Below are positions 4,230 to 64,000 of a stretch of DNA of 64,000 nt, in pieces. The DNA comes from a virus (taxonomy: Duplodnaviria; Heunggongvirae; Uroviricota; Caudoviricetes). Each line of letters starts with the position of its first letter. Position 1 is the stretch's first letter. Made by a program: the position numbers and the translations under genes. The DNA is taken from the IMG/VR virus record IMGVR_UViG_2778261505_000002; one strand, written 5' to 3'. Under the pieces are notes generated by a model. It saw only the letters and a program-made list of their open reading frames with translations, had not been told where the DNA came from and made no database searches.

Positions 4230-4559
4230 ATGTTTACAAATATCGACATCAACCAAATCAAGAAATTAACTCAAAAAGAGTTTGATCAGTTTTATGAGTT
4301 AGAAGGTTGGTCTTCCACTCTGATCAATTCAAGATGGGTGCTGGAGCTGATGACTCGTGATGACGCACCTGCTTTGATGATTTGCGACATGGGTGAAGAT
4401 GCTGACTTTATGGATATGAGCGAATTTTGTGTGGACACATACAACCGCAGCCAGAAGTACTACTTCACATGCGATAGCGAGAATGACGTTATTTCTAAGG
4501 TCTATCTTCACCTCGTCCAGCATTGGGACGTTCAGGAGTTTCTTGAAGTATTCGAGTAA
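4230..4559 (+). CDS. hypothetical small acidic protein (109 aa)
   Basis: ATG 4230 with AAGGA RBS 8 nt upstream; the track start 4209 lies inside the operator; D/E-rich. Confidence 0.5.
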   Translation: MFTNIDINQIKKLTQKEFDQFYELEGWSSTLINSRWVLELMTRDDAPALMICDMGEDADFMDMSEFCVDTYNRSQKYYFTCDSENDVISKVYLHLVQHWDVQEFLEVFE

Positions 4560-6184: not shown

Positions 6185-6353
6185 TTATTAAGGCCATCAG
6201 CATTGGTGGCCTTAAATGACCATCCTGTTTCCCGCAGGCTAAAAACACCAACCTCTTACCTCCAGGCAACCGATAAACCCACCTGTTCCCGTCCGGCTAC
6301 CGCAACTTTCCACTTTGACGCCTTATTCGTACAACGATAATTAACACCAACAA

Positions 6354-9762: not shown

Positions 9763-9766
9763 GTCA

Positions 9767-10189
9767 TCACAGAGTTGTTGGCAGAATGTCGATGTCACCA
9801 GAATTGCTGGTGAACACCCTGAACGCTTTTGTGTCTCCATTCTTCAGAGTCGTTTCTCGCTCTTGACGAGCGGGGTTTAGAGCACATAAACCTGCACCTT
9901 CAAGAGATGCACCCACAATTAATTCTCCGGCATTTAAATGGAAAGTCGCTTTTTCGCCTGTAGCCAGTTTTGCGACAGTTTCGCCGTTGATGAAAATGGA
10001 AGCATCACATCCAGCTCCTACAAAACCTGTGTCTCTCATTACCACCAACGTAGCTGGCGCTGCGCTTTGATACTTGAACACTTTGGCCTGCGGTGCTGGT
10101 TTGGCGTCATGGATTGATATTGGGCGTGATTGGCACGCGGTAAGCATCAACACTGGTAACGTTAGTAGAGGGAGAAGCGAGTATTTCAT
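9767..10189 (-). CDS. lipoprotein (candidate superinfection-exclusion factor)
   Basis: MKYSLLPLLTLPVLMLTAC signal with lipobox LTAC; function is inference. Confidence 0.5.
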   Translation of the reverse strand: MKYSLLPLLTLPVLMLTACQSRPISIHDAKPAPQAKVFKYQSAAPATLVVMRDTGFVGAGCDASIFINGETVAKLATGEKATFHLNAGELIVGASLEGAGLCALNPARQERETTLKNGDTKAFRVFTSNSGDIDILPTTL

Positions 10190-12162: not shown

Positions 12163-12861
12163 GTGGATTGTAGCAATAAAATGGATGTAAAAATCACGAT
12201 TTTGCAGGTTGATGTTGCCAACCTTCGCCCGAATACCTGGAACACCAATTCGGTTGGTGCGCAGAATTTTGAAAAACTGAAAGGTTCTATCGAAAAATTG
12301 GGCTTTTTTAAGCCAATTTTGGCTCGTGAACTTGAAGATGGATTTTTTGAAATCCTCGGCGGCGAACATCGCTGGCGTGCTGCTATTGAGCAAGGAATTT
12401 CAACGGTTCCGGTGCTTTCTGTGGGCAAAATTAGCGATGTCGTAGCTAAACAGATGTCACTGGTGGACAACGAGCGATACGGTGAAGACGACCAAATCGC
12501 ATTGCAACGCTTCATTGAAGAAATTCAGTCAGAACTTGACTATCAACTGTCTGAAATCGCTCCGTATGACGACGAAATCTCGATGGTTTTAGCAAAAGAG
12601 GCGGCAATCGACCTTGAAGCACTGGAGGCGTTGTCTCGTGGTAGTGATGAGCCTGTCGATACCGACAAACGAGAGAAAACCGAACGTGTGGGTGCGGAAC
12701 ATCAGACCATGCGCTTCAAAGTAACTTTCGATGCGTCAGATCGTGTTGCAGAAACCATAAAAAACATCATCAAAGAGCAGGCTATTAACACCGGTAATGA
12801 AATGGAGAACGCTGGTGAGGCTCTGGTGTGGCTGGTCGACTACTACAAGGAGCGTATGTAA
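12163..12861 (+). CDS. ParB N-terminal-domain (ParB/Srx-fold) protein
   Basis: GGEHRWRAA resembles the ParB arginine-rich box; start could be 12181. Confidence 0.6.
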   Translation: MDCSNKMDVKITILQVDVANLRPNTWNTNSVGAQNFEKLKGSIEKLGFFKPILARELEDGFFEILGGEHRWRAAIEQGISTVPVLSVGKISDVVAKQMSLVDNERYGEDDQIALQRFIEEIQSELDYQLSEIAPYDDEISMVLAKEAAIDLEALEALSRGSDEPVDTDKREKTERVGAEHQTMRFKVTFDASDRVAETIKNIIKEQAINTGNEMENAGEALVWLVDYYKERM

Positions 12862-13529
12862 TGACCAAAAAGTTTGAAATCGTATATCGCGACCCGGCAG
12901 ATCTTATTCCCTATGAGATGAATGCCAAAAAGCATGATGAACAGCAGATCAGAGATCTGGCCGCAGCCATTAAAAAGCGCGGATTTGACCAGCCAATTAC
13001 GGTCGATAAGAACGACGTAATTATTACTGGCCACGGCCGCCGTGAGGCTGCAATTTTTGCTGGACTTGAGCGCGTACCGGTTATTGTTCGTGATGATCTG
13101 AGTGATGACGAGGTACGTGCAAAGCGCCTTGAAGATAACCGACTTGCCAGCATTGATTACGATGCAATTAAGCTACAGAAAGAGCTTGAGTCGCTTGTTC
13201 TGGACGATATCGAGGTTTTCGGCTTCGAAGAGCGTGAGTTGAATGTTCTCGTTGGCAGTATGACAGAAGAAATGGACACCGACTCGCTAGTTATCGATCT
13301 TGGCGAAGAAACTAAACGACAGAAGGATGAACACACCGAGATCAGTCGTGAAGTTGCAGCGGAAGAAGTACGTGTTGTCGACGTATTGGGCTTTAAAACG
13401 CTCCCTGCTGGCTCTGCCATTGTTGTTGGTGATTTGCTTGCCCACATGGAAGAAATGACGGGAGAAAGCGGGGTAGACGCATTTGTGGCATATGCGGAGA
13501 AGATCTCTTCCGGGGAGATGGCTGCATGA
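12861..13529 (+). CDS. second ParB N-terminal-domain protein
   Basis: GHGRREAA motif; ATG overlaps the upstream stop (TAATG). Confidence 0.6.
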   Translation: MTKKFEIVYRDPADLIPYEMNAKKHDEQQIRDLAAAIKKRGFDQPITVDKNDVIITGHGRREAAIFAGLERVPVIVRDDLSDDEVRAKRLEDNRLASIDYDAIKLQKELESLVLDDIEVFGFEERELNVLVGSMTEEMDTDSLVIDLGEETKRQKDEHTEISREVAAEEVRVVDVLGFKTLPAGSAIVVGDLLAHMEEMTGESGVDAFVAYAEKISSGEMAA

Positions 13530-14191
13530 GCAAATACATCATCAACGTATCGTTTCAGACACGCGTAAATAAAACCACGCGCACGTTGGAAATCGCTGAG
13601 TCGTTCGGGCTTGGCCTGGACGAAAAAGAGTGGACGCTTTACGACAATCTGGAGCTGGAAGTGAAGCAGGGCGATGTGGTGTACATCACCGGCCAATCCG
13701 GTTCCGGCAAATCCGTTGTGCTGCGCGAGTTGCAACGACAGATGAAGGATGAAGGGCTGTCTGTAGCCTCCATCGATGATTTTACCTTCGATAATGAGGT
13801 TAACGTCATCGATCAGTTGGGCAAAACGACCAGTGATGCGCTTGGGTTGTTATCTATGGCTGGTCTGAACGATGCATATCTGTTTGTTCGCAAGCCTTCT
13901 GAAATGTCAGACGGCCAGAAATATCGTCTCAAGATTGCCAAACTGATTGAGTCAGGCGCTAAAGTATGGGCTGCTGACGAGTTCGGCGCTGTTCTAGACC
14001 GTGTAACTGCTCAGGTTGTGGCGTCTAACCTCCAGCGTGCCGCTCGAAAGGTTGGTGCGACGGTAATGGTGGCGACGACTCACGAAGACCTGAAGAACGC
14101 GCTGCGCCCGGATATGCAGATCACCAAGCACTACAAAGAACGCGTGAAGGTGGAATATCACAATGGTAGTCATGATGAGGTCCATTCATGA
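13526..14191 (+). CDS. small ABC-type ATPase (nucleotide-binding-domain-like, 221 aa)
   Basis: Walker A GQSGSGKS, signature-like MSDGQ, Walker B VWAADEF, H-loop TTHE; ATGA overlap with upstream gene. Confidence 0.6.
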   Translation: MSKYIINVSFQTRVNKTTRTLEIAESFGLGLDEKEWTLYDNLELEVKQGDVVYITGQSGSGKSVVLRELQRQMKDEGLSVASIDDFTFDNEVNVIDQLGKTTSDALGLLSMAGLNDAYLFVRKPSEMSDGQKYRLKIAKLIESGAKVWAADEFGAVLDRVTAQVVASNLQRAARKVGATVMVATTHEDLKNALRPDMQITKHYKERVKVEYHNGSHDEVHS

Positions 14192-15378: not shown

Positions 15379-15433
15379 CCTGCTTCTGTATATATAAATA
15401 ATAAGTAACTTATTAAATATATACGGAAGCAGG
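15379..15433. repeat. 55 bp palindromic element, copy 1
   Basis: CCTGCTTCTGTATATATAAATAATAAGTAACTTATTAAATATATACGGAAGCAGG; near-identical copy at 47837-47891. Confidence 0.7.
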
Positions 15434-44760: not shown

Positions 44761-45282
44761 TTATTCTTCGAACAATTTTTCGATAGATTTTGTAGGATAG
44801 AACAAAGAACGCTCGTTGTTACCAACCAGCTGGATAAAGTCTAAACTTTTATAAAACGCCTTGGCTTTGTCATTTAACGCCTCAACGAAAAGTCCATGAA
44901 TGCCTACAGCAAGAGATGCATTGTACACAACGCGCATTGCATGTGTTACAAGCATTGAGCCAAATCCTTGACCTTGAAGGGACTTGTCCAAAGCCAGCCT
45001 ACCCAAAGTAACACTTGGAACATTCCGATAAGGTACCTTCTTTTGCTGGCTTCTTGAAGGTAAGGACTCCTTTTCAAAGCAGCTACCTGACAAAGTGTAA
45101 TACCCTAACACTTTTGGTCTGCCTTCTTTCGTGCAAAGCACATAAGCGCGAAGAATTTTTCCCTCATGCTGCCTTTTTAAGTGGTTGGTTAAAAAGGCAT
45201 TTAGTGATTCTTCACCGCAATCAAAACCATTCAAATCATAATCTTTCTCTCCAGAGAAAATTTCTATCTTTATATTATCCAC
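44761..45282 (-). CDS. GNAT-family acetyltransferase toxin (TacT/AtaT/KacT-type)
   Basis: GNAT motif A QGQGFGSMLV; 173 aa; immediately downstream of DUF1778-like gene. Confidence 0.75.
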   Translation of the reverse strand: MDNIKIEIFSGEKDYDLNGFDCGEESLNAFLTNHLKRQHEGKILRAYVLCTKEGRPKVLGYYTLSGSCFEKESLPSRSQQKKVPYRNVPSVTLGRLALDKSLQGQGFGSMLVTHAMRVVYNASLAVGIHGLFVEALNDKAKAFYKSLDFIQLVGNNERSLFYPTKSIEKLFEE

Positions 45283-45289
45283 GAGTAAA

Positions 45290-45559
45290 CTACTCCATGC
45301 TTTTCAGACGATCAGCAGCTCGTTTCAGCTTGTCGTTCGGTGCCGGAGGATTGCTTATAGCGTCCATAACCAGATTCCAGGATTCTTCATTCAGAACTAG
45401 TCTACGGTGTTGCTCTATAACTTTCACGGCACGTTCAGATGCACTGCTAACCATAAACTGAGTAATGCTCTGGTTAGACATTGCGGCAGCTTCCTCGATG
45501 ATGCTTTTATCGTCATCGGTTAATCTCAAATCGATGCGCTGCTTTTTTAGTGCTGACAT
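45290..45559 (-). CDS. RHH antitoxin (DUF1778/TacA-type)
   Basis: About 90 aa; ATG 45559 with GGAGG RBS; 8 bp from toxin start. Confidence 0.7.
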   Translation of the reverse strand: MSALKKQRIDLRLTDDDKSIIEEAAAMSNQSITQFMVSSASERAVKVIEQHRRLVLNEESWNLVMDAISNPPAPNDKLKRAADRLKSME

Positions 45560-45826
45560 GTATTCCTCCTGATGGCCGTGATGTAGGAAGGCCATCAATC
45601 TCCTCTGTTCAAACTGAGTTTTCGACTCAAAAATTACTTTAAAAGGCTATAGCCCATTACGTGTGCATTATCAAATTGTGTACGGCATATCACCGTACTT
45701 GTAATATAGAGGTCATTGTTACTTTTTTCAACAGACAAATACAAGCTATGTTTGCCAATTGTTAATCACAACCTACCATTTAACCTTTACACCGCAGCCG
45801 TAGGCATTTAGGCTATATCACATATA

Positions 45827-45842
45827 AGAAAACAAGTTGTTT
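45827..45842. promoter_or_regulatory. dyad GAAAACAAGTTGTTTC (early family)
   Basis: Upstream of parA-like gene. Confidence 0.45.
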
Positions 45843-45877
45843 CAGACGATAATTATATACGCAAAGGGAACTCTCCA

Positions 45878-46546
45878 ATGACCAAGATCTTTGTGGTTGG
45901 CGGCACAAAGGGCGGGCCTGGCAAATCCACCGTTGCCCAGCAAATTGCCGTTTGCCTGAAAGTCAAAAAGAAGAAGAAGGTTTATATTACCGATATAGAT
46001 ATTCAGCGCACGACAACGAGCTGGTGTGAAGACCGTCGACAGAACGAAGACCTTGAGCTGATTCCTTTTGCATACGTTCAGGATGACATCATTAAGCACC
46101 TAAAATCGCTTCAGGGTAGAGCTGAGTTTGTAGTGGTAGATGCTGGTGGCTTCGACTCCGAAATTCAGCGACAAGCGATGCTGATGGCTGACGTTATCAT
46201 TATCCCGCTGCGTCCTAAGCGTCGTGATTTGAAATCTTTACGTGACATCGATCCTATTATCGACAATGTTCGCAATGTAAACGATAAAGTGAAGGTCCGC
46301 GCGGTCATGAACCAGTGCCCGGCTTTGCCATCACAAGTGTCTCGCATTCTGGCGGCTAAAGAGATTGTTGAGACGTTTGGAATCGAGTCTGCGCCAGTCA
46401 ATCTATATAACCGCAACGTCTATGATGATGCGGAAGAGTCTGGTCGTTCTATCTTTGAAATGACCGGTAGCGAGCGCGACAAAAAGGCGGAAGCCGAGTT
46501 TGAAGAATTTGTAGATTATCTGTTGAGTCTGGAGGAAGAAGAATAA
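45878..46546 (+). CDS. ParA-family partition ATPase
   Basis: Deviant Walker A GGTKGGPGKST; 222 aa. Confidence 0.8.
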   Translation: MTKIFVVGGTKGGPGKSTVAQQIAVCLKVKKKKKVYITDIDIQRTTTSWCEDRRQNEDLELIPFAYVQDDIIKHLKSLQGRAEFVVVDAGGFDSEIQRQAMLMADVIIIPLRPKRRDLKSLRDIDPIIDNVRNVNDKVKVRAVMNQCPALPSQVSRILAAKEIVETFGIESAPVNLYNRNVYDDAEESGRSIFEMTGSERDKKAEAEFEEFVDYLLSLEEEE

Positions 46547-46905
46547 TGTCCATGAAAATGGGTGACCTAGCAAAGCGCAAAGAGCCTGATGCACCGGCTA
46601 AGAACACAACTCCTTTGCGCCAACCAGTCAGACCACAGGGACGCCCGACTCGTGGCAAAGAGAAAATTAAAAGCCGCACAATGTCACTGGAGGACGAATA
46701 CTTCGAACTGCTGGAGATGATGAAGTTCATCCCTCGCTTCGAGAAGTTCACTCGTTCTGACGTGATTCGAGCAGCCATTTTCCATCTGGCAGAGAAGTCA
46801 CCGCAGGAAATCGAGGACATCGTGAAATTGAATGAGGCGATCACCGCTGCCGATGTCACGATGCGTACCGATGAAATCAAACGAGAGTTGATGAAGAAAG
46901 GTTAA
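46546..46905 (+). CDS. small partition-associated DNA-binding protein (ParG/RHH-like, putative)
   Basis: 119 aa, basic N-terminus, translationally coupled to ParA. Confidence 0.5.
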   Translation: MSMKMGDLAKRKEPDAPAKNTTPLRQPVRPQGRPTRGKEKIKSRTMSLEDEYFELLEMMKFIPRFEKFTRSDVIRAAIFHLAEKSPQEIEDIVKLNEAITAADVTMRTDEIKRELMKKG

Positions 46906-46910: not shown

Positions 46911-46941
46911 ATGCATTGGCGCGTACATTGCGCCAATGCAT
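46911..46941. terminator. bidirectional hairpin between convergent genes
   Basis: ATGCATTGGCGC-GTACATT-GCGCCAATGCAT perfect 12 bp stem. Confidence 0.6.
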
Positions 46942-46957: not shown

Positions 46958-47725
46958 TTATGCCGCGCTAACACTATGTTCAGTCCTAACCACCCCAACC
47001 TTCACAAAAGGGCTACCGTAGCTTGGTGGCTTCTTGATTAATTTGCCTACATACAGTTTTCTAATATGCTCATCGGCTATTCTGCCAACAAATTCATAAC
47101 GTTTTGTGTCGGGGCCAAGAGCTATATCCCTTGTAAAGTACTGCTGAGAACCGGCTTTGACCCAGCATTCAATCTGATAAACTTCCATTATCAGCCCACC
47201 ATATGTAGCGTAGGCATATTTGAGATTCTCGTCTCTTGGAACCTTTGCCCATACGCCACGCGTAGCTTCATATAATGCCAGAGCGGACATTCCTGACTTG
47301 TAGGTGCTGTTTAGCAGGAAGGCAAGACCGGCGTGCTCAGGAGCAATTTCAGTTTCCTCTTGCAGCACTAAGTGATGGTAGGCGTCTAGTGATATTCTGC
47401 CCATCATGGAACCACTTCCTCGTACCTTATTCGTAAGCTCTCCGACCCCCATAAGGTCGATGCATGTCGCCTCAACAAGTTTGGCTGTGGTTTCATCCAT
47501 ACCATGACGAAGTATATCTATGCCTAATTTTTTATTAGCCAAAAGTTCTTTGATCCGCATGGATTTGGGAGAGTCATCGGGATACTTGATGTGATCGAGA
47601 CAACGAGTCGATTTGCCTTTTCCTATGTAAAACGGTCTTTTCATCTTGTCTTCTGTATCATAGAGACAGTAAACATAGTATTTAGCCTTATCCAATGATC
47701 TCGCGTATACCGATAAATCGTCCAT
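46958..47725 (-). CDS. GIY-YIG nuclease-domain protein (255 aa)
   Basis: N-terminal YVYCLYD...PFYIGKGK...R...H matches the GIY-YIG pattern; C-terminal region unassigned. Confidence 0.6.
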   Translation of the reverse strand: MDDLSVYARSLDKAKYYVYCLYDTEDKMKRPFYIGKGKSTRCLDHIKYPDDSPKSMRIKELLANKKLGIDILRHGMDETTAKLVEATCIDLMGVGELTNKVRGSGSMMGRISLDAYHHLVLQEETEIAPEHAGLAFLLNSTYKSGMSALALYEATRGVWAKVPRDENLKYAYATYGGLIMEVYQIECWVKAGSQQYFTRDIALGPDTKRYEFVGRIADEHIRKLYVGKLIKKPPSYGSPFVKVGVVRTEHSVSAA

Positions 47726-47836: not shown

Positions 47837-47891
47837 CCTGCTTCCGTATATATAAATAATAAGTAACTTATTAAATATATACGGAAGCAGG
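47837..47891. repeat. 55 bp palindromic element, copy 2
   Basis: Near-identical to 15379-15433. Confidence 0.7.
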
Positions 47892-55699: not shown

Positions 55700-55774
55700 G
55701 ATGGTGTAGCTCAGCGGTAGAGCAGTTGGCTGTTAACCAACTGGTCGGTGGTTCGAATCCACCCACCATCGCCA
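55700..55774 (+). tRNA. tRNA-Asn (anticodon GTT)
   Basis: Cloverleaf folded by hand: 7 bp acceptor, D arm, anticodon loop CTGTTAA, T loop TTCGAAT, 3' CCA encoded. Confidence 0.85.
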
Positions 55775-55779
55775 ATTTA

Positions 55780-55866
55780 GGGGAGTTAGTCCGTAGAGGT
55801 AGCGGTGTAGACTGTAAATCTACTGTCATTGCGACTCGGGTGGTTCGACTCCATCACTCCCCACCA
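55780..55866 (+). tRNA. tRNA-Tyr (anticodon GTA), long variable arm
   Basis: Acceptor GGGGAGT/ACTCCCC, anticodon loop CTGTAAA, T loop TTCGACT, CCA encoded. Confidence 0.85.
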
Positions 55867-55870
55867 AATT

Positions 55871-55946
55871 GCCGGTTTAGCTCAGTTGGTAGAGCGCCTG
55901 CCTTGTAAGCAGGATGTCAGCGGTTCGAGTCCGTTAACCGGCACCA
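55871..55946 (+). tRNA. tRNA-Thr (anticodon TGT)
   Basis: Acceptor GCCGGTT/AACCGGC, anticodon loop CTTGTAA, T loop TTCGAGT, CCA encoded. Confidence 0.8.
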
Positions 55947-56163
55947 ACACAACAGGAAAGAGCATTGAAAACCGCCGAGACTGCCCTGTTTTAAGCGTAA
56001 GTCCGTGCAAACGTCATACAGTGCTCTTTTCGTTGTGGTTGATGCGCAGACTGATGCGCGGAAAGAAATGCCCCAGCGACACACGAGGCGAGTTCACACA
56101 CTGCAATGCAGTCAGTAGCCGGGGTCGCTAAGCCGGAGATCAGTACCGGTAACCACAACAATT

Positions 56164-56250
56164 GGAGAGTAGGGAGCATGGTGCTCAAGCGGTCTTGAAA
56201 ACCGTCCCATTGTGCAAGCGATGATGGTTCGATTCCATTACTCTCCGCCA
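56164..56250 (+). tRNA. tRNA-Ser-like (anticodon TGA), atypical D arm
   Basis: Acceptor GGAGAGT/ACTCTCC, anticodon loop CTTGAAA, long variable arm, T loop TTCGATT, CCA; D arm non-canonical. Confidence 0.55.
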
Positions 56251-56252
56251 GA

Positions 56253-56330
56253 CACAGCGTTGAGCGGTTTGGCCTTTTAATCACCCAGATTAAGACTCCG
56301 CTAACATAAACCAGACCGCTCAACGCTGTG
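56253..56330. repeat. long imperfect hairpin (20 bp arms) immediately 3' of the tRNA-Ser-like gene
   Basis: CACAGCGTTGAGCGGTTTGG ... CCAGACCGCTCAACGCTGTG, 19 of 20 complementary. Confidence 0.6.
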
Positions 56331-56405
56331 ATAGACAATTACGGCAGACGTTCTTAACCATAGCTTGCTAACATCCTAGCAACACTTTTTTTCAGCGCAA
56401 AATTC

Positions 56406-56428
56406 AAAGGGGCTTCGGCCCCTTTTTT
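56406..56428 (+). terminator. rho-independent terminator
   Basis: GGGGC-TTCG-GCCCC followed by TTTTTT. Confidence 0.85.
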
Positions 56429-56471
56429 GCAACTGAAAGAGTCAAGTCTACGAACTTTGTAGGAAGAAATA

Positions 56472-56822
56472 ATGACCAGCAAAGAGAACACACCACTAAA
56501 AGTCACCCCTGAACACATTGAACAACTCATTCAAAGTGAACATTATTTCACTGCATATGATGCCAGCCACGGGGATAACTTCATCTCTGTTTACAATTCA
56601 AAAACAGATATCGACAAAGGTCATGAGTCGTTAAAACTCTTAACGTTCTGCGTTATGGTTCTCAAAAATGGATATACCGTAACGGGAAAATCTGCGTGCG
56701 TAAGACCAGAAATCTTCAACTTTGATGTTGGTCGCGAGTACGCTCGAAAAGATGCTATCGATCAAATCTGGCCCCTGGAAGGCTATCTCCTGAAGCAAAA
56801 GTGGCATGAGGCAAAGCAATGA
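56472..56822 (+). CDS. hypothetical protein (116 aa)
   Basis: ORF translationally coupled to the glutaredoxin gene. Confidence 0.5.
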   Translation: MTSKENTPLKVTPEHIEQLIQSEHYFTAYDASHGDNFISVYNSKTDIDKGHESLKLLTFCVMVLKNGYTVTGKSACVRPEIFNFDVGREYARKDAIDQIWPLEGYLLKQKWHEAKQ

Positions 56823-57064
56823 CGATCACTATCTACGGACGAGATAACTGCTCATACTGCAAACGTGCGGTCGAGCTGGCGAAGCAACTAAAGGGACATG
56901 GCTACGGTGATTATGAGTACATCGACATCACCACTGCCGGTATCGACAAGGAAAAACTAAGTGAAATTGTTGGTAAACCGGTAGAGACTATCCCCCAAGT
57001 GCTGATCGATGGCCAACCGATTGGCGGATACACTGAACTGGCTGCATACGTCAGCACCCTCTGA
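56819..57064 (+). CDS. glutaredoxin-like protein (NrdH/Grx family)
   Basis: CSYC active site and C-terminal IPQVLIDGQPIGGY signature. Confidence 0.8.
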   Translation: MTITIYGRDNCSYCKRAVELAKQLKGHGYGDYEYIDITTAGIDKEKLSEIVGKPVETIPQVLIDGQPIGGYTELAAYVSTL

Positions 57065-57274
57065 TTTTAACGGCTCACAGGAGCCGTTTTTATTCCCACC
57101 AAACTCACTCCCGTTTCCCTTAAAATTCAAAAAACAACGTCAAAATGATTCCATACCTACTATGTATGGAATCATTACTGAAAATGAGTTACTTTTACTC
57201 TTGATCCTATAAGAATCTATGCCTAATATACTGTTTACTTATACAGTGAATCGGCGTAACTCGGTGATTGTCAT

Positions 57275-58378
57275 ATGAAAAATAGCTTTGACAGAGCACG
57301 CGCTGCGGAGAACACCTCAAAAGAGGCGATTGAGTATCTCGAAAGAGCATCTCAAATGCAGGCCGTTATGATCTCGCAGGTTAGCAATGATATGAGATTC
57401 TCGGACGCATTCATGTTATTTACTCGCTTATCTCTGCTGATAACCAGACGTCGGCCAGAGATCGCTGTTCATTGTATTTTGATACATGTTTTGCCGCACA
57501 TTGCCGATGTAAAAGTAAGTGACATTAATAGGTTCATGGTGAACCAACTGGTCAACCCACTAATACTGGATGGCAAAATTGTTATGGGCCGCCGCGTTTT
57601 CTCTCTGATGAAGCAGTTCCTTAGCTGGTGCGCCTTCCAGGGGATGATAGACGTGTCACCGTTAAACGATATGTCACTTAACAAAGTTGCCGGTGGCGCA
57701 AAGCCCACACCTCGCGAGCGGAAGCTGACCGACGCAGAGGTATGGGTGTTCTGGAATATATGGGACTACTTCAATGTGTGCGCTGGTACAAAATGGGCGG
57801 CCAGGCTGTGTCTTGTATCCGCAAGACGACCTGACGAAGTACTGCGGGCTAAAAAAAGTGAGTTCAATCTTAAGCGTGGGGTTTGGAATCAAGGCAAGAG
57901 GAACAAATCTGCCCGTGAGCATTCGCTGCCTTTAAGCACATTAATGCGCACATGTATTGAAGAGTTGTTCGAATACGGTAAAGGCAGCCAGTGGCTCGTG
58001 CCTTCGAATAAAAAAATCGGGAAAGACCTTCCTATGTCTAAAGTGGCAATAGCCCAGGCATTACGTCGTATTCTGGAACGACCAGAACTGATGGAGCTTG
58101 AGCCATTTACACCCCGAGACTTGCGCCGTACTGCGCGTAGTTACTTCCCAGCATTAGGCATAAGCCAGGAGGTATCACGTAAAATCATGAACCACAGTCT
58201 TGAGGGGATAGATCGAGTCTACGACCGGCACGATTATATGGACGAGATGCGAGACGCCTTAGAAAGTTTCTCGACGTACATCGCATCAATCGTAGAGCAA
58301 CCGGATTTAGACGAAATTGACCACAAATTCAAGGGAGATCGTCTATCAACAGAGCTTATTCGTGTAAATTTTTCATAG
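57275..58378 (+). CDS. tyrosine recombinase / phage integrase
   Basis: C-terminal catalytic pattern R...NHSLEG...RVYDRHDY (Arg, His-x-x-Arg, Tyr). Confidence 0.8.
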   Translation: MKNSFDRARAAENTSKEAIEYLERASQMQAVMISQVSNDMRFSDAFMLFTRLSLLITRRRPEIAVHCILIHVLPHIADVKVSDINRFMVNQLVNPLILDGKIVMGRRVFSLMKQFLSWCAFQGMIDVSPLNDMSLNKVAGGAKPTPRERKLTDAEVWVFWNIWDYFNVCAGTKWAARLCLVSARRPDEVLRAKKSEFNLKRGVWNQGKRNKSAREHSLPLSTLMRTCIEELFEYGKGSQWLVPSNKKIGKDLPMSKVAIAQALRRILERPELMELEPFTPRDLRRTARSYFPALGISQEVSRKIMNHSLEGIDRVYDRHDYMDEMRDALESFSTYIASIVEQPDLDEIDHKFKGDRLSTELIRVNFS

Positions 58379-58759
58379 AGACTTTATGGCCTCAACAACC
58401 TTTTGTGATGCGCCTTTCTCTTTACCGAATCGCTCGTTATATGCAGCAAGAACCTGTTTTTCGTCCTCGTTAAGAGGAGCGGTGCCTTCTTTGTATAAAA
58501 ATGCTGCGAGTTCAGGTTGGCGTTCTTCCAGCACCATCATCATAAGACGACTTGGCTCAATACCCAGCGCCAGCGCCAACGGACGAACCTTATCGATAGG
58601 CAAAGGAATTTTGCCACTTTTAATTAAAGAAAGGTTGTTGGCATTTTTATAACCAATAAGTCTGGCTATTTGGGCCTGACTCATAGGTGAGGATTCAATC
58701 AGCCCTGCGATAAAAGCAGCATAGCGACTTTCTATAAATTCAATCTTGTTGTCAGACAT
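58373..58759 (-). CDS. HTH (XRE-like) DNA-binding protein, candidate repressor
   Basis: HTH segment SQAQIARLIGYKNANNLSLIKSGK; convergent with and overlapping the integrase 3' end. Confidence 0.55.
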   Translation of the reverse strand: MSDNKIEFIESRYAAFIAGLIESSPMSQAQIARLIGYKNANNLSLIKSGKIPLPIDKVRPLALALGIEPSRLMMMVLEERQPELAAFLYKEGTAPLNEDEKQVLAAYNERFGKEKGASQKVVEAIKSL

Positions 58760-59010
58760 TGTTACAACCTTTGCGCGTTCAATTCTCACTGGTAAGTGCT
58801 TACCGATATTACATCAAAGGTTAGGGTTGTAAAGCTATTATCATTTTTTTCGATAGGCACTTAAAAGACCGGTTAAAGGCCATTGCACGGAGAAAAATTA
58901 GCCCAAAACAGGTAAGAAAATTAACTTGTATATGATATGAATGTATTCAGTATTGATATAAATTTTAGTAGTATTCCTTACCATAGTATAAGTTAGAATG
59001 GATTGATTGA

Positions 59011-59223
59011 ATGAACACCACTATTTCCAGCCTAATCGCTCTTGAGATCGGACACGTACAGAAATTAGCTGATGAGTGTGTAGCTGACATCCTCACCGAT
59101 CTACCGAATGAGCAGATTCAGGTTGGTGTGAATGACACAACTGGCTTTATATTCGAATTTAACAACAAACGCTTCACGCTTCTCAATACCGGCTCCGGGT
59201 CTTTAGCCGTCAGAATCTGTTAA
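59011..59223 (+). CDS. hypothetical protein (70 aa)
   Basis: ORF. Confidence 0.35.
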   Translation: MNTTISSLIALEIGHVQKLADECVADILTDLPNEQIQVGVNDTTGFIFEFNNKRFTLLNTGSGSLAVRIC

Positions 59224-59321
59224 CCCCTCTTCTCCCTGCGCGAATGGCTTAGTTCCCTGTTCGCGCAGTGCTACATTAAACACACTAGTAAATAATTTGT
59301 TTTCATAACAAAGGATTAGCC

Positions 59322-61430
59322 ATGTCTAAAAAACGTTCCATCAAAGAGGTTCAGGACTTCCGTGACAGTGTAAAACGAGTAGTCGCTCTCCTTTCAGGTA
59401 AAAACATCCCTGTTGCAGAACGAGGGGACGACGCTTATGTTCGCTATAACGATGATGGAGAGCCAATTCTCGTAAACATCCCATCAATCCCGGATAACGC
59501 AACACCGGCATTGATGAATGCTGTGCGCGGATTTCTCGATCATGAGGTTGCTCACATTTTGTTTACCGATATTCGTGTGTCCAACAAAATGAGAGAAAAA
59601 GGACGCGTTCCTTCCTGGTCGCTATGGAATGCCTTAGAAGACGTGTTCATCGAGCGAAAAATGGGTCAGGTCTTTAACGGAACAAGACGTAATCTGATGG
59701 CAACTCAGCGCCTTATAATCGAAAAAGTCTTTAAACCAAAGGCTTCAGAGGCTATTGCTTATTGTGGCAAAGATCAGCGCGCGCTTTTTCTAAACTTCTT
59801 TCTCTGTCCGGTTGTAAGAGCCTGGGATGGCCAAGCACCGTTCGTAGATTTCATGGATGAATATTGGCCTGTCATTGAGAAACCAATTTCATTATTAAAA
59901 GAACATGGTATCGATGTGGCCGTGCGTAACATGTCTTGCACCGAGGATTGTGTAAAGGTGGCTGCGACCATAGCTAAGATCCTCAAAGACACTGAAAGTG
60001 AAAGCAAAGGTAAGGAGTCAGCTCCGGGAAAAACTTCCGATCCTTCAGACGCTGACCAGACGGATGCCTCTGGAGAAAACAGTGAAGACAACGAAGATCA
60101 TGAGACACCCTCAGTGTTAGATAATCACAAATCTATCAAATCAGAATCACACAGTAAGCACAAACATGATAATAACGACAGTGATGATTCAGATAATTCT
60201 GAATCATCAGAAACAATATTCGATGATACAGAAAATGATAAAGAGGTATCAGATTCTGATGCTTCTGATAACGCGGCGTCAGAATCATTAACCGCTGACC
60301 ACGAAAAAAGAAAAACGACAGAAGACGGCTCTTCAGATATCCCAACTCCGTCAAAAATGAGTCTGGAAGAGGCTTTAGAGGAGTTGGATAGCATGGAAGA
60401 TGAAGTCGGAGGCATGACAGAAGATGCGCTATCCGAAACGATTAAAAGCGAGTTAACAGAAAGCTCGAAAAGCGAATACAGGCCATACAATCGCTCATAC
60501 GACTTCATCGGCTCGATTGATCAGGCAGAAGCCCATATCAAACGGCTTATTAAAACATTCTCCGATATTGATTTGGGAGGATATCCAATCAGCCGCTATC
60601 GCATCGTTCCTGAAGGCAACCAGCTCTTCGACAAATATATTGAAAAGCATCTTTCGTCAGGTGTTTCGTCGACGCTGGCAAAAGACCTGGAGCGAGCAAT
60701 AGCAAGCAGAAACAGAGTTCAGTTTATACCGGGCCAGCGTCGGGGGCGCATTCATGGTTCTAGTATCTACAGATTAGCAATGAATGATGCTCGCGTGTTT
60801 CGTAAAAAAGAAGAATCTAAAGCCGTTAACGCCTGTGTTCAACAAGTGATTGATTTATCAGGTTCAATGAGTGGTATAACGATACAATTGGCTCTTGCAA
60901 GTGCATATACCATCGCCGATGCCCTTGATCGAATAAATGTTCCCAACATTATCACCGGCTTCACTACATTTGGTAGTCATATGGCGGCAGGAGAACTTAA
61001 GGCTGTCAAGTATGAGTTCTCTCGCTTTGAATCTTTAATGCTACCTATCATCAAAAATTGGAATGAAAAGGTAAATTCTCGCGAAGTTCGCTCACGTATG
61101 GGGTGCGTAGGCTACACATTCCCACTTCTTAATAACGTGGATGGTGAAAGCATAGCCAGCCTTGCATCGTTATTTTCCGGTCGCTTGGAGGACAGGAAGA
61201 TCATGCTTGTTCTGAGTGATGGCGCGCCGTGGGCTGTTGGGAGAGGTTTTGACGCTCATTTGCGTTCAGTTGCGAAGCAAATTGAAACGCAGACTGATAT
61301 TGATTTGATGGCAATTGGCATCATGACTGACGCACCGGAGAGATTTTACTCAAATCATGCCCTGGTAACGAGCGTTGATAGTCTTGGTTCATCTGTAGTT
61401 ACTGAACTATCTCGTATCATTTTAAAGTGA
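59322..61430 (+). CDS. von Willebrand factor A-domain protein (CobT-like) with acidic Ser/Asp/Glu-rich central region
   Basis: MIDAS motif DLSGSMSG in C-terminal half; long acidic low-complexity linker. Confidence 0.65.
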   Translation: MSKKRSIKEVQDFRDSVKRVVALLSGKNIPVAERGDDAYVRYNDDGEPILVNIPSIPDNATPALMNAVRGFLDHEVAHILFTDIRVSNKMREKGRVPSWSLWNALEDVFIERKMGQVFNGTRRNLMATQRLIIEKVFKPKASEAIAYCGKDQRALFLNFFLCPVVRAWDGQAPFVDFMDEYWPVIEKPISLLKEHGIDVAVRNMSCTEDCVKVAATIAKILKDTESESKGKESAPGKTSDPSDADQTDASGENSEDNEDHETPSVLDNHKSIKSESHSKHKHDNNDSDDSDNSESSETIFDDTENDKEVSDSDASDNAASESLTADHEKRKTTEDGSSDIPTPSKMSLEEALEELDSMEDEVGGMTEDALSETIKSELTESSKSEYRPYNRSYDFIGSIDQAEAHIKRLIKTFSDIDLGGYPISRYRIVPEGNQLFDKYIEKHLSSGVSSTLAKDLERAIASRNRVQFIPGQRRGRIHGSSIYRLAMNDARVFRKKEESKAVNACVQQVIDLSGSMSGITIQLALASAYTIADALDRINVPNIITGFTTFGSHMAAGELKAVKYEFSRFESLMLPIIKNWNEKVNSREVRSRMGCVGYTFPLLNNVDGESIASLASLFSGRLEDRKIMLVLSDGAPWAVGRGFDAHLRSVAKQIETQTDIDLMAIGIMTDAPERFYSNHALVTSVDSLGSSVVTELSRIILK

Positions 61431-61525
61431 ACAAAACAGCCTTAATGATAAGTAACCACTTACGATAGATGATGATATATTTATATAAGAAGTTGAACGC
61501 TCATTAGAGAACAAAGGAAAAACGC

Positions 61526-62761
61526 ATGACGACTACTGCACTGCAAAATGAAAAAAATCCTTCTGATTACCTTGTTTGCAAGTGGTGCGGCAAATCATTT
61601 CACTATTTTAAGTCCCATGTAGCCAATGGTAATTGCGAGGGCATTCCTGAGTCAGTAAAAGATGCCGATCCTGACACCGTACTGAAAATGTACACAACGC
61701 AGTTTCCAGATGAACCAACGCTATCGAAAAAGGCACTTGATGCAATTCAAGCTAAACGTGCCGAGCAAAAAAGCGAAATGGCCAAATCTTCTGGCTTGAC
61801 CAGTAGCCCTGGCTACACAGGCACAGTTGAGTACAAGACAGATCTGGTCGCAGCTCACGAACTGCTAAACGTAACGGTGGAAGAACTCGGAACAAAACGT
61901 GGGACGCCGCTCATGGTTAGCGTCAACGTCAATACGCCGTATCCAGAGTTCGTTCCCGAAGTGAAGAAAGGCTACGTATATGGCGACTTCGAACTGATCA
62001 AAGATATTTTCATGATGCTTGAACTTGGCATACCTGGCTATTTGTGGGGTCATGCAGGAACAGGCAAATCGTCATTGCCTACACAGCTATGTGCTTTGCT
62101 CAATCGTCCGTTGATCCGTGCCCAACATACAGCATCAATGGAAGAGGCACATGTTACGGGGCAAATTCTGGCGCGTGATGGCTCTACGTATTTCGAACCT
62201 GGCTTGCTTGCGCTCGCAATGAAGCATGGCTGGGTTTACCTCGCGGATGAATACGACTTTGCGTTTCCACAAATTCTTGGCGTGTATCAGCCAGTGCTGG
62301 AAGGTGAAGCGTTGGTCATCAAAGAGGCAACTCCAGAATGGCGTCGCATTACTCCGCATGAACGGTTTGCTTTCATTGGCACTGGCAACACGAACGGATC
62401 TGGTGATGAAACCGGCTTGTACCAGGGTACAAACATCCAGAACGCCGCGAACTTTTCGCGTTTTGGCATCGTTTCGAATGTGAAATACATGAGCAAAGAC
62501 GCAGAGATCAACATGCTGACAAATGCAGGCATCGTGGATGAATACGCTGAAAAGATGGTTAAGTTTGCCGGTATCGTTCGCGATGGATACGAAGAACACC
62601 TCATTAGTCAGCCAATTGGCCCTCGTGAACTTTTGTTGTCGGCCAAGATTGGAATGATGCGAGGCGACTTTGTGACAGGTATTGAGCGTTCTTTCATTAA
62701 CAAACTCCCTTCAGCTTCTGCACAAGCGGCTCGTGAAGTTGTTCAAAAAATATTTGGTTAA
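61526..62761 (+). CDS. AAA+ ATPase (CbbQ/NorQ/CobS-like)
   Basis: Walker A GHAGTGKSS, Walker B VYLADEYD. Confidence 0.7.
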   Translation: MTTTALQNEKNPSDYLVCKWCGKSFHYFKSHVANGNCEGIPESVKDADPDTVLKMYTTQFPDEPTLSKKALDAIQAKRAEQKSEMAKSSGLTSSPGYTGTVEYKTDLVAAHELLNVTVEELGTKRGTPLMVSVNVNTPYPEFVPEVKKGYVYGDFELIKDIFMMLELGIPGYLWGHAGTGKSSLPTQLCALLNRPLIRAQHTASMEEAHVTGQILARDGSTYFEPGLLALAMKHGWVYLADEYDFAFPQILGVYQPVLEGEALVIKEATPEWRRITPHERFAFIGTGNTNGSGDETGLYQGTNIQNAANFSRFGIVSNVKYMSKDAEINMLTNAGIVDEYAEKMVKFAGIVRDGYEEHLISQPIGPRELLLSAKIGMMRGDFVTGIERSFINKLPSASAQAAREVVQKIFG

Positions 62762-62941
62762 TCGTGCGTAAAGGATGTTTCGGCTCTCTTATCGCTGCTT
62801 CTGAAACTGGTAAGGCTTGTCTGGTGTGTCCAGACAAGCCCGATTGTCACCAATCAGCAAAAGAAGTTGCGATTTCGATGCATGGGAAGTTCGTAGGCTT
62901 CCCCAATGACAAAATCAAAAAAACCAGAAAGGTAAAAACAC

Positions 62942-64000
62942 ATGAAGGCACTGATGGTTCGAACTGACTTCTCACTTGGGGAGTCGGCTCTAAAAGCAGA
63001 AAACGCGGTGAAGATTGCCAGAGAAGCTGGCTACACCGCTGTAATTTCAGCAGATAGCATGAATATTGCGAGCGTTATTCCACTACAACGTGCCGCTGGT
63101 GACGACATGGCGGTTATTTGTGGTGTGAAACTAAACATTGTTGATGATCCCACATACGAGCACCGGGCTAAACTTGCTAAAGAATCTATGAGATGTATGG
63201 AATCATTAGAGCGAGGACGTAACTACTCGTTTACCGCTCTAATTAAAAATGAGAAAGGATATCGCGACATCTGCGAACTAATGACGGCGGCCAACACACG
63301 AGAACAGTTCTACTTTGTACCGCGTCTCTCGCTCGAACAGTTGGTTTCTACATATGCCAAAGGCAACATCATCCTGCTTACTTCCGACATCGGTAGCGTG
63401 TTCCAACGCAACGATTTTGCAAAAATCATAAGCACACTGATTACAGCGGGTGGAAAAGACAACTTCTATAGTGTGGTTTATCCGCACCCTACCCCATTCT
63501 ACGACCAGATTAACGTCCGGGCGATGAAAGTCGCCAGCGCATTGAAAATAGAGCCAGTGGCGTTCTATCCCGCTTATTACGAATCGATCGACGATGCAGA
63601 CATTAAAGACATTGCGCACATGGTTACGAACAACATCAAAATCGACCAGCCGCATCGTCTGCGTATCCCCCACCAGCGAGATAACGCCGTCAATGGTCGC
63701 CGCCATCTCCTTGAGGCGCTTAAAGCCTTCTCCGTTCGCATGGATGTGCCGGTAACAGCTGCAATGGCCTCAACAACGCAGGATACCATTATCGATGCCT
63801 GCACATGGCGCTGGCATGAATTGCCGCCAGCACTGCCAAAGATGGCAGACGACGAGCCTGCAACGCTGATGAAACTGGCTGTTGCAGGGCTGCGTAAACG
63901 TCTTACCACAAAAGAGTTTGGATACACACCACCTGCTTCTGAGAACAGGGTTTATGTTGAGCGGCTAAAGTACGAAATGGACACGCTGACTCGCCTGGGA
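62942..64000 (+). CDS. DnaE-like DNA polymerase III alpha subunit, N-terminal region (3' end outside window)
   Basis: ATG 62942, frame open to the window end; N-terminal pattern compatible with a PHP domain; not in the ORF track because no stop is reached. Confidence 0.55.
   Translation, partial: MKALMVRTDFSLGESALKAENAVKIAREAGYTAVISADSMNIASVIPLQRAAGDDMAVICGVKLNIVDDPTYEHRAKLAKESMRCMESLERGRNYSFTALIKNEKGYRDICELMTAANTREQFYFVPRLSLEQLVSTYAKGNIILLTSDIGSVFQRNDFAKIISTLITAGGKDNFYSVVYPHPTPFYDQINVRAMKVASALKIEPVAFYPAYYESIDDADIKDIAHMVTNNIKIDQPHRLRIPHQRDNAVNGRRHLLEALKAFSVRMDVPVTAAMASTTQDTIIDACTWRWHELPPALPKMADDEPATLMKLAVAGLRKRLTTKEFGYTPPASENRVYVERLKYEMDTLTRLG

What the first reader, a model, noticed from the sequence alone, without database searches (positions are those of the whole stretch)
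45878..46905. ParA plus small coupled partner: plasmid-type partition on an element that also encodes an integrase
The deviant Walker A box is unambiguous. Active partition implies extrachromosomal maintenance, in tension with chromosomal linkage to metG and with the integrase at 57.3 kb. The integrase could instead resolve multimers. The centromere is unassigned; the palindrome at 47837 and the iteron arrays are candidates.
Basis: partly seen in the sequence, partly recalled or inferred. Interest (0 to 1): 0.45.

Follow-up and report, generated by a model that had tools for sequence, protein, structure and literature searches.

The report
Partition module of an SSU5-type phage-plasmid
The ParA gene and its small partner are the ordinary plasmid-partition cassette of a well-known ~110 kb SSU5-family phage-plasmid of E. 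coli. The supposed conflict with chromosomal linkage disappears because metG and the integrase are carried on the plasmid itself.

Summary
An intact ParF-like (type Ib) ParA lies at 45878-46546, and a 119-aa partner overlaps its stop codon by 1 nt (TAATG) at 46546-46905.

The "tension" is not real. The whole window is collinear (98-99.6 %) with complete circular ~110 kb E. coli plasmids such as p4_0.2 and pERB3f3. These are SSU5-family phage-plasmids that themselves carry metG-apbC. The par region occurs in 264 of 5,426 complete E. coli genomes, always on plasmids and never on a chromosome. The same holds for the integrase.

A 98 %-identical relative, Cyrano/pLF82, is published as an episome at about 5.5 copies per chromosome. 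SSU5 itself has the par cassette but no integrase.

The partner belongs to an unannotated family (PHROG 5111) with weak ribbon-helix-helix signals. The centromere remains unassigned. My best guess is the 78-bp block 45771-45848 upstream of parA, which is 97 % conserved where parA DNA is only 77-84 % conserved.

A side lead: a 13-bp leader palindrome precedes about 20 operons, and the element encodes an FljA-family repressor.

Verdict: ordinary and already known. Interest is low.

The parts
45878..46546 (+). parA: a small ParF-like (type Ib) Walker partition ATPase of 222 aa
   Evidence: The KGGPGKST deviant Walker A box is present. The protein aligns over its full length to ParF (4dzz, E=1.2e-10). 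Its DNA is 100 % identical to the stretch of p4_0.2 annotated WP_000161228.1.
46546..46905 (+). Partner gene (119 aa), the presumed centromere-binding and ATPase-stimulating protein. It has a conserved N-terminal MGDLAKR motif, a variable linker, and a conserved basic stretch RPQGRPTRGK-IKSRTMS. This is followed by a predicted strand-helix-helix (residues ~43-82) and two further helices.
   Evidence: The start overlaps the parA stop. The gene always sits directly after parA in relatives. It is 92-93 % identical at the amino-acid level in SSU5 and Klebsiella elements. It belongs to PHROG 5111, of unknown function. It has no Pfam or PDB match. The weak ribbon-helix-helix (RHH) signals are NCBIfam aCcr1, E=2e-4, residues 54-79, and Pfam RHH_1, E=0.005, in homologue P0027 over the equivalent residues.
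45771..45848 (+). Invariant upstream block containing the par promoter. It holds a -35 TTTACA (45786-45791), a 17-nt spacer and a -10 TAGGCT (45809-45814). Two TAGGC boxes lie 8 bp apart (45801-45805 and 45809-45813). This is my best candidate for the operator/centromere.
   Evidence: The block is 97.4 % identical to SSU5 and to Klebsiella pJN2-26, whereas parA DNA is 83.7 % and 77.3 % identical. In all 774 matching plasmids, homology starts at about 45764-45777. The 8-bp-spaced TAGGC pair is unique in p4_0.2 and in SSU5 and is absent from pMT1. The promoter assignment comes from reading the sequence; the -10 is too weak for the consensus scan.
45830..45842 (+). 13-bp palindrome AAACAAGTTGTTT in the par leader, about 16 nt after the -10 and 36 nt before the ATG. 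It is one member of a genome-wide family of promoter-proximal palindromes.
   Evidence: There are 27 strand matches (about 12 sites) in the window against 3.3 expected. There are 18 sites in p4_0.2 against 0.8 expected, 20 in SSU5 and 6 in pMT1. The architecture around each site is stereotyped.
46911..46941 (.). Perfect 12-bp inverted repeat with a 7-nt loop, lying between the convergent partner gene and the GIY-YIG gene. It is a probable terminator and is not conserved in SSU5.
   Evidence: repeat I7. RNA fold energy is -22.3 kcal/mol, z = -3.8. Homology with SSU5 ends at 46903.

Best explanation
The window is a stretch of a ~110 kb circular SSU5-family phage-plasmid of E. coli. This is a temperate siphovirus whose prophage is kept as a low-copy plasmid. 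Coordinates 45771-46905 are its partition cassette, of the type Ib (ParF/ParG-like) kind.

Shown by sequence and comparison:
- An intact small Walker ATPase ParA.
- A tightly coupled small partner gene.
- A promoter-bearing upstream block that is more conserved than the genes themselves.
- A cassette that travels as a unit.
- Exclusive location on plasmids.

Inferred mechanism:
- The partner dimerises through a ribbon-helix-helix domain (residues ~43-82) and binds the DNA just upstream of parA. Candidate sites are the two TAGGC boxes that overlap the -10.
- This binding both represses the operon and forms the partition complex.
- The partner's flexible, conserved N-terminal tail (MGDLAKR, then an Arg-rich stretch) stimulates the ATPase of nucleoid-bound ParA-ATP dimers.
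- Plasmid copies are thereby pushed apart before cell division.

A second control layer is likely. The 13-bp palindrome in the par leader is shared with about 20 other operons of the element. It is probably bound by another conserved regulator, with the FljA-family protein at 9238-9840 as the candidate.

metG-apbC are cargo genes of the plasmid. The tyrosine recombinase at 57275-58378 is an accessory gene of a variable segment beside the tRNA cluster, not evidence of chromosomal integration.
For: Identity of the element:
- Window 2690-55967, 56132-64000 and 1-1907 match circular plasmid p4_0.2 at 99.6, 99.3 and 98.0 %.
- Window 1-4209 matches circular plasmid pERB3f3 at 99.4 %.
- p4_0.2 is annotated with terminase, portal, capsid, tape measure, RepB, metG and apbC.
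- The par region matches SSU5 at 86.6 % and Cyrano at 98.1 %.

Extrachromosomal state:
- 304 places in 264 of 5,426 complete E. coli genomes, all on plasmids.
- 737-774 PLSDB plasmids, about 95 % of them non-mobilizable and ~110 kb.
- Cyrano is an episome at 5.5 copies per chromosome, is induced 39-fold by ciprofloxacin, and forms siphovirus virions (PMC9928086).

ParA type: ParF 4dzz E=1.2e-10 over the full length. NCBIfam ParA_partition E=2e-33. PHROG 164.

Cassette logic:
- parA and partner are adjacent in every relative examined.
- The left homology boundary lies at ~45771 in all lineages.
- The upstream block is 97.4 % conserved against 77-84 % for parA DNA.
- pMT1 lacks both genes and instead has P1-type ParA/ParB.

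Partner fold: sub-threshold RHH hits. AlphaFold gives an extended segment followed by helices 48-59 and 70-82.

metG as cargo: it is on 218 plasmids.

Integrase: only on plasmids in E. coli, absent from SSU5, and located in a segment inserted right after tRNA-Asn relative to SSU5.
Against: - No experiment on this cassette was found in the literature searches.
- No iterated repeat array of the kind that defines type Ib centromeres (parH, parC) exists upstream of parA. There are only two 5-bp boxes.
- The RHH assignment failed profile-profile comparison with ParG, omega, Arc, CopG and ParD. It also failed both fold searches.
- ParA scores below NCBIfam's curated cut-off (115.7 against 180 bits).
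- The par promoter carries the same leader palindrome as promoters of lytic-type genes such as the terminase operon and the replication genes. If that palindrome binds the lysogeny repressor, the par operon would be damped in the very state where it is needed.
- A bioRxiv survey reports S. Agona chromosomes with an integrated plasmid fragment matching the SSU5 repB-parA region. The cassette can therefore end up in a chromosome.
Confidence: 0.85

Rival explanations
1. Dispersed centromere. The partner is an omega/KorB-like dual-function protein that binds the ~20 copies of AAACAAnTTGTTT. It would act both as global repressor and as partition-complex nucleator, so the element would have many centromere sites.
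For: One copy of the palindrome lies in the par leader (45830-45842), and about 18-20 copies lie at other promoters. A 13-bp palindrome present in a dozen or more copies is what is known for KorB operators on RK2 (own knowledge). The RHH protein omega of pSM19035 combines both roles (own knowledge).
Against: pMT1 lacks the partner and has no paralogue of it, yet it keeps 6 palindromes in the same promoter context. The FljA-family protein (9238-9840) is conserved at 78-80 % in SSU5 and pMT1, so it matches the motif's distribution better. The test is weak, because pMT1 may have lost the cassette only recently.
Confidence: 0.06
2. The centromere is the 55-bp hairpin palindrome at 47837-47891, together with its second copy at 15379-15433.
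For: The palindrome is conserved in Cyrano, SSU5, pJN2-26 and L011 at the same relative position. It is present in multiple copies, as are the dispersed centromeres of phage-plasmid N15 (own knowledge). It is strongly structured, with a fold energy of -32 to -34 kcal/mol and z of -8 to -9.
Against: It is retained at 96 % identity in pMT1, which uses a P1-type ParAB system. The 47837 copy is followed by TCTTTT and closes an upstream plus-strand operon in SSU5, so it looks like an intrinsic terminator. Variable genes are inserted between it and the par cassette, at 0.9 kb in the window and 1.9 kb in SSU5, so it does not travel with the cassette.
Confidence: 0.06
3. The element is, or can be, an integrated prophage, with the integrase mediating insertion next to chromosomal metG. 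On this reading ParA would be a relic or would act only after excision.
For: A P4-like tyrosine recombinase lies next to tRNA genes. The window starts inside metG. S. Agona chromosomes are reported to carry an integrated SSU5 repB-parA fragment.
Against: There are no chromosomal copies of parA or of the integrase in 5,426 complete E. coli genomes. metG-apbC are internal to the circular plasmids. The window's metG is the plasmid allele. No att-like direct repeat flanks the integrase segment.
Confidence: 0.02
4. ParA's true partner is one of the two ParB_N-domain proteins at 12163-13529, and the small downstream ORF has another role. Cyrano's annotation calls that ORF a RelE/ParE toxin.
For: Two ParB_N proteins are annotated as partition proteins. 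Cyrano's annotation labels the small ORF as a toxin.
Against: The ParB_N pair sits 32 kb away in the packaging region. It is retained in pMT1, which lacks this ParA. The small ORF has no RelE/ParE Pfam hit. It is coupled to parA in every lineage examined.
Confidence: 0.03

Closest known systems
ParF-ParG-parH of plasmid TP228 (type Ib partition)
   Same: ParA is the same size and aligns over its full length to ParF. A small partner gene follows directly. The partner has a flexible N-terminal tail followed by a probable ribbon-helix-helix domain. The regulatory or centromere DNA is expected upstream of parA.
   Different: The partner shows no detectable sequence or profile similarity to ParG. 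It is longer (119 aa against 76 aa) and has two extra C-terminal helices. There is no array of tetramer boxes like parH, only two TAGGC boxes.
delta-omega of pSM19035, and IncC-KorB of RK2
   Same: In both systems a partition ATPase works with a DNA-binding partner whose sites are also promoter operators. The par leader here carries a palindrome that is repeated at many promoters.
   Different: Here the dispersed palindrome persists in pMT1 without the partner. It is therefore more likely to belong to another regulator.
ParA-ParB-parS of phage-plasmid P1, and SopAB of N15
   Same: They do the same biological job: active partition of a low-copy plasmid prophage. P1 also encodes a tyrosine recombinase (Cre) used for cyclisation and dimer resolution rather than for integration (own knowledge).
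   Different: These are type Ia systems. Their ParA is large with an N-terminal DNA-binding domain, and their ParB is an HTH/ParB_N protein. The cassette here is type Ib. pMT1, a relative of this element, carries the P1-type system instead.
SSU5_033/SSU5_034 of Salmonella phage SSU5; pHCM2, pLF82/Cyrano
   Same: These are the same cassette, at 91 % and 93 % amino-acid identity. SSU5_033 is already annotated as a ParA-like partition protein. SSU5 parA is used as a screening marker for phage-plasmids.
   Different: SSU5 lacks the integrase, the TacAT pair and the GIY-YIG gene that flank the cassette in this window.

Membership tests
Type Ib (ParF/ParG-like) plasmid partition system | Small Walker-type ParA (~190-310 aa) without an N-terminal DNA-binding domain | tested here: met
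   The protein is 222 aa. Residues 9-199 align to ParF residues 8-189 of 206. NCBIfam ParA_partition profile positions 6-202 of 203 are covered.
Type Ib (ParF/ParG-like) plasmid partition system | Intact deviant Walker A (KGGxxK[ST]), Walker A' and Walker B motifs | tested here: met
   KGGPGKST at 11-18, ITDID at 37-41 and VVVDAGG at 85-91, read from the translation and aligned to the ParF motifs.
Type Ib (ParF/ParG-like) plasmid partition system | Small (<130 aa) partner gene immediately downstream in the same operon | tested here: met
   The partner is 119 aa and overlaps the parA stop as TAATG. The arrangement is the same in SSU5, Cyrano, pJN2-26, L008-L011.
Type Ib (ParF/ParG-like) plasmid partition system | The partner is a ribbon-helix-helix DNA-binding dimer | tested here: inconclusive
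Type Ib (ParF/ParG-like) plasmid partition system | Centromere made of iterated short repeats adjacent to (usually upstream of) parA | tested here: inconclusive
   No array was found. What exists is a 78-bp block more conserved than the coding DNA, containing a unique pair of TAGGC boxes 8 bp apart.
Type Ib (ParF/ParG-like) plasmid partition system | The cassette stabilises a low-copy replicon, and the partner stimulates ParA ATPase | not testable with these tools
   This needs plasmid-loss and ATPase assays.
SSU5-family phage-plasmid | Collinear with SSU5 and known members, carrying phage structural, lysis and replication genes together with a plasmid replicon | tested here: met
SSU5-family phage-plasmid | Maintained as a circular extrachromosomal replicon | tested here: met
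   For relatives: none of 304 places in E. coli genomes is chromosomal, and Cyrano is at 5.5 copies per chromosome. The physical state of the source molecule of this window cannot be measured here.
Integrated (chromosomal) prophage | Flanked by host chromosomal genes and att repeats, with chromosomal copies in sequenced genomes | tested here: not met
   metG-apbC are internal to the plasmid. No att-like repeats were found. There are 0 chromosomal places for parA or for the integrase.
MipZ (the PGAP label on some copies) | Full-length match to the MipZ family | tested here: not met
   The Pfam MipZ hit covers only profile positions 2-150 of 262, which is the shared P-loop half. The full-length matches are to ParF and ParA_partition.

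The most novel reading that the evidence does not exclude
The small partner is the protein that recognises the ~20 dispersed 13-bp leader palindromes (AAACAAnTTGTTT). If so, the phage-plasmid would have a dispersed, operator-embedded centromere, and partition would be wired directly into global control of phage gene expression. That would be an omega/KorB-like arrangement in a temperate phage.
Probability: 0.06. Interest if true: 0.6.

Novelty: already known. Interest (0 to 1): 0.15.

Why it matters
The finding as given matters little. SSU5-type phage-plasmids and their ParA are already catalogued, and the apparent paradox came from taking plasmid-borne metG for chromosomal DNA.

What remains open:
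- The centromere-binding partner (PHROG 5111, annotated as hypothetical and in one record as a toxin) has never been characterised.
- The centromere of this very common enterobacterial element is unassigned. The element is present in about 5 % of complete E. coli genomes.

These elements carry resistance genes, and their stability determines how long they persist. The side observation is the more promising lead: a stereotyped leader palindrome on about 20 operons, together with an FljA-family repressor.

Tried and rejected
All probabilities were below 1 %.
- An exhaustive HMMER search of 1.84 billion representatives found only 18 relatives. This is a small family confined to these elements.
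- Repeat searches upstream and downstream of the cassette found no iterated array.
- Tandem Repeats Finder found no iteron array near the cassette.
- The leader palindrome as centromere is rejected as the first choice. It is genome-wide and persists in pMT1 without the partner.
- The 47837 palindrome and the 31-nt repeats as cassette-specific centromeres are rejected for the same reason.
- Rfam found only tRNAs.
- PADLOC gave no defence-system hit for ParA or the partner.
- att-type repeats around the integrase segment were not found.
- Literature searches for the palindrome sequence and for metG on SSU5 elements returned nothing relevant. One literature search was badly framed and uninformative.
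- Gilcrease and Casjens 2018 (PMC5800970) is not held in the library.

Full report
**Observation.**
- The first protein has the deviant Walker A box KGGPGKST (residues 11-18), a Walker A' motif (ITDID) and a Walker B motif (VVVDAGG).
- It matches Pfam MipZ, AAA_31 and CbiA over the P-loop half, and PHROG 164 'ParA-like partition protein' at E=4e-51.
- It matches NCBIfam ParA_partition over the whole 203-position profile at E=2e-33, although below the curated cut-off.
- Among solved structures, its best match is ParF of TP228 (4dzz, E=1.2e-10, residues 9-199).
- The ParA stop codon overlaps the partner's ATG (TAATG), and GGAGG lies 10 nt upstream.

**What the window is.** The 1.4 kb around the cassette is 100 % identical to E. 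coli plasmid p4_0.2 (NZ_CP023851.1, 110,452 bp, circular). It is 99.9 % identical to many other ~110 kb plasmids.
- I rebuilt p4_0.2 from four fetched pieces. Window 2690-55967 and 56132-64000 align to it at 99.6 % and 99.3 %, and window 1-1907 aligns at 98.0 %.
- The only gap, 1908-2689, is closed by plasmid pERB3f3, which matches window 1-4209 at 99.4 %.
- p4_0.2 is annotated with terminase, portal, major capsid, tape measure, tail fibre, holin/endolysin-region genes, DnaB-like helicase, ligase, DNA polymerase III alpha, a RepB replication initiator, and also metG and apbC.
- The par region matches Escherichia phage Cyrano at 98.1 % and Salmonella phage SSU5 at 86.6 %.

The window is therefore part of an SSU5-family phage-plasmid, a group described by Pfeifer et al. 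2021 (PMC7969092).

**The 'tension' dissolves.**
- The metG fragment at the window's left end (Pfam tRNA-synt_1g) is a plasmid gene. The same metG segment is found on 218 PLSDB plasmids, 201 of them Escherichia and mostly ~110 kb and non-mobilizable. The window's allele is 99.9 % identical to a plasmid copy and about 94 % identical to a chromosomal metG.
- In 5,426 complete E. coli genomes, the par region occurs in 264 genomes at 304 places, all of them on plasmids.
- The integrase region occurs at 254 places, again all on plasmids.
qPCR gives 5.5 episome copies per chromosome, ciprofloxacin induces the phage 39-fold, and siphovirus virions are seen (PMC9928086).

One caveat applies. A survey reports S. 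Agona chromosomes carrying an integrated plasmid fragment that matches the SSU5 repB-parA region.

**The integrase.** The protein encoded at 57275-58378 is a tyrosine recombinase (Pfam Phage_integrase and Phage_int_M; PHROG 1). A small HTH regulator is encoded on the other strand.
- SSU5 has no homologue of it.
- Relative to SSU5, the window carries an extra ~3.5 kb directly after tRNA-Asn. This holds three more tRNAs, a gp49-like gene, a glutaredoxin gene, the integrase and the regulator.
- pMT1 of Yersinia pestis has the same integrase at 86 % amino-acid identity, with the same neighbours.
- No att-like repeats flank the segment.

The gene is thus accessory to the family. A Cre-like role in cyclisation or multimer resolution is possible, and so is a passenger islet that entered next to a tRNA gene. 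Sequence alone cannot decide between these.

**The partner.** It has no Pfam, PADLOC or PDB match, and it belongs to PHROG 5111 of unknown function.
- The family is small. There are 25 clusters in 5.8 billion proteins and 18 representatives in an exhaustive HMMER search, all from elements of this kind.
- The alignments show a conserved N-terminal MGDLAKR motif, a variable linker, a conserved basic stretch (P-x-R-x-P-x-R-P-Q-G-R-P-T-R-G-K), and a core I-K-S-R-T-x-S-x-E-D-E-[YF]...[ST]-R-[ST]-D-V-I-R-A-A-I.
- That core reads like a ribbon-helix-helix (RHH) motif.
- Support for this is weak but consistent. NCBIfam aCcr1, an RHH family, hits at E=2e-4 over residues 54-79. Pfam RHH_1 hits at E=0.005 (17.1 bits against a 20.5-bit cut-off) in the 42 %-identical homologue P0027 over exactly the equivalent residues, and at E=0.11 in P0034.
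- AlphaFold gives an extended segment followed by helices 48-59 and 70-82, then two more helices.
- Profile-profile comparison with five classical RHH proteins was negative, and three fold searches were also negative.

I treat the RHH fold as likely but unproven.

**Where the centromere might be.** The cassette behaves as a unit.
- In every lineage among 774 matching plasmids, homology starts at about 45764-45777 and ends at the partner's stop codon.
- The flanks differ between lineages. In the window they are TacAT upstream and a GIY-YIG gene downstream; in SSU5 and the Klebsiella elements they are other ORFs and a terminator.
- The only shared non-coding DNA is therefore the 107 bp before parA.
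- Its first 78 bp (45771-45848) are 97.4 % identical to both SSU5 and pJN2-26, whereas parA DNA is 83.7 % and 77.3 % identical.
- Read directly from the sequence, the block contains TTTACA, a 17-nt spacer and TAGGCT, plus two TAGGC boxes 8 bp apart that overlap the -10. That pair is unique in p4_0.2 and in SSU5 and is absent from pMT1. A displaced pair occurs in the more distant L011 lineage.
- No longer array exists.

By elimination, and by analogy with type Ib systems, I place the operator/centromere here. My confidence in that placement is about 0.4.

- The palindrome at 47837-47891 is real (17-nt perfect arms) and is conserved at that position in relatives.
- It has a second copy at 15379-15433, three copies in SSU5 and one copy in pMT1. 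pMT1 lacks this par cassette and uses a P1-type ParA/ParB.
- It folds at -32 to -34 kcal/mol. The 47837 copy is followed by TCTTTT, so a terminator is the simplest reading. The 15379 copy lacks a U-tract, so another role is not excluded.
- The 'iteron arrays' are 31-nt repeats at 3079-3170 and 6214-6302. The second array lies in a stretch that is also conserved in pMT1 and SSU5.

**The leader palindrome.** The 13-bp palindrome AAACAAGTTGTTT (45830-45842) is not private to the par operon.
- It occurs at about 12 sites in the window (27 strand matches against 3.3 expected).
- It occurs at 18 sites in p4_0.2 (0.8 expected), 20 in SSU5 and 6 in pMT1.
- Where it sits upstream of a gene, the arrangement is stereotyped: a -10-like box, about 13 nt, AGA, the palindrome, then 18-40 nt to the start codon.
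- pMT1 has no partner gene and no paralogue of it, so the partner is an unlikely binder.
- A better candidate is the protein encoded at 9238-9840 on the minus strand. It is a full-length member of Pfam Flag1_repress (FljA family, E=2.5e-84) and is 78-80 % conserved in SSU5 and pMT1.
- FljA of Salmonella acts on the fliC 5' leader (own knowledge). That leader, verified here in S. enterica subspecies and in Citrobacter, contains CAAGTTGT about 22-29 nt before the AUG. This is the core of the phage-plasmid palindrome. The E. coli K-12 fliC leader lacks it.

This is a lead, not a result.

**Comparison and verdict.** Functionally and by sequence, the cassette is a type Ib (ParF-like) partition system with an orphan, probably RHH, partner. 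Its closest characterised relative is ParF/ParG/parH of TP228. The functional analogues among phage-plasmids, P1 ParAB and N15 SopAB, are type Ia. ParA of SSU5 is already annotated and is used as a typing marker. The finding is therefore an ordinary, already known feature.

Noticed in passing
window 1531, 1582, 3022, 4205, 4689, 5592, 6356, 15472, 15497, 45830, 48760, 59290 (13-bp sites); candidate binder gene at 9238-9840 (-): A 13-bp palindrome, AAACAAnTTGTTT, sits in a stereotyped position at about 20 promoters or leaders of the phage-plasmid: a -10-like box, ~13 nt, AGA, the palindrome, then 18-40 nt to the ATG. There are 18 sites in p4_0.2 against 0.8 expected, 20 in SSU5 and 6 in pMT1. 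The element encodes a full-length FljA-family protein (Pfam Flag1_repress, E=2.5e-84) that is conserved in all three elements. The Salmonella fliC leader shares the CAAGTTGT core. The motif was not found in the literature search.
   Followed up: partly
window 1-1446 (metG, truncated by the window edge); apbC lies beyond the window on p4_0.2: A complete methionyl-tRNA synthetase gene and apbC are cargo of the E. coli lineage of SSU5-like phage-plasmids. They occur on 218 PLSDB plasmids. The plasmid allele is about 94 % identical to a chromosomal metG. No paper linking SSU5 and metG was found.
   Followed up: partly
window 15379-15433 and 47837-47891: There are two copies of a 55-bp hairpin palindrome (CCTGCTTCYGTATATA...TATATACGGAAGCAGG; fold energy -32 to -34 kcal/mol). 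Each lies about 100-150 bp upstream of a major operon: packaging/structural for one, replication for the other. SSU5 has three copies, one of which spans the ends of the SSU5 record, and pMT1 has one copy. The hairpin is either a terminator or some other conserved signal.
   Followed up: partly
window ~2680-4230 and 6214-6302: A 1.5-kb stretch has no annotated CDS in the related plasmids. Positions 2900-3540 are strongly C/A-rich on the plus strand. The stretch contains 31-nt repeats (3079-3170) that recur at 6214-6302, and it is about 68 % similar to SSU5 90410-91656. Rfam finds nothing there.
   Followed up: partly
window 46958-47725 (-): The GIY-YIG (LEM-3-like) gene directly after the par cassette matches the single-gene anti-phage system PD-T4-3 (PADLOC, E=1.3e-23). 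It occupies a slot that holds different genes in SSU5 and in the Klebsiella elements.
   Followed up: partly
window 44761-45598 (-): A TacA antitoxin / GNAT acetyltransferase toxin pair (TacAT/KacAT type) lies directly upstream of the par cassette and is transcribed divergently from it. This is an addiction module sitting next to the partition module. It is present in the E. coli lineage but not in SSU5.
   Followed up: no
window 55700-59320: Relative to SSU5, a ~3.5-kb segment follows tRNA-Asn. It holds tRNA-Tyr, tRNA-Thr and tRNA-Ser, a gp49-like gene, a glutaredoxin gene, the tyrosine recombinase and an HTH regulator. SSU5 lacks the recombinase and pMT1 has it. No att repeats were found.
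   Followed up: partly
window 12163-14191 (+): Two ParB_N-domain proteins and an ABC-type ATPase are encoded just upstream of the packaging genes. They are conserved in SSU5 and in pMT1 regardless of which partition system is present. They are therefore probably not the plasmid partition proteins, despite their annotation.
   Followed up: partly
L007 (Cyrano) 3947-4306; several RefSeq plasmids: There are annotation errors in public records. The partner ORF is labelled 'RelE/ParE putative toxin' in Cyrano. ParA is labelled 'division plane positioning ATPase MipZ' in several PGAP annotations. Neither label is supported here.
   Followed up: yes
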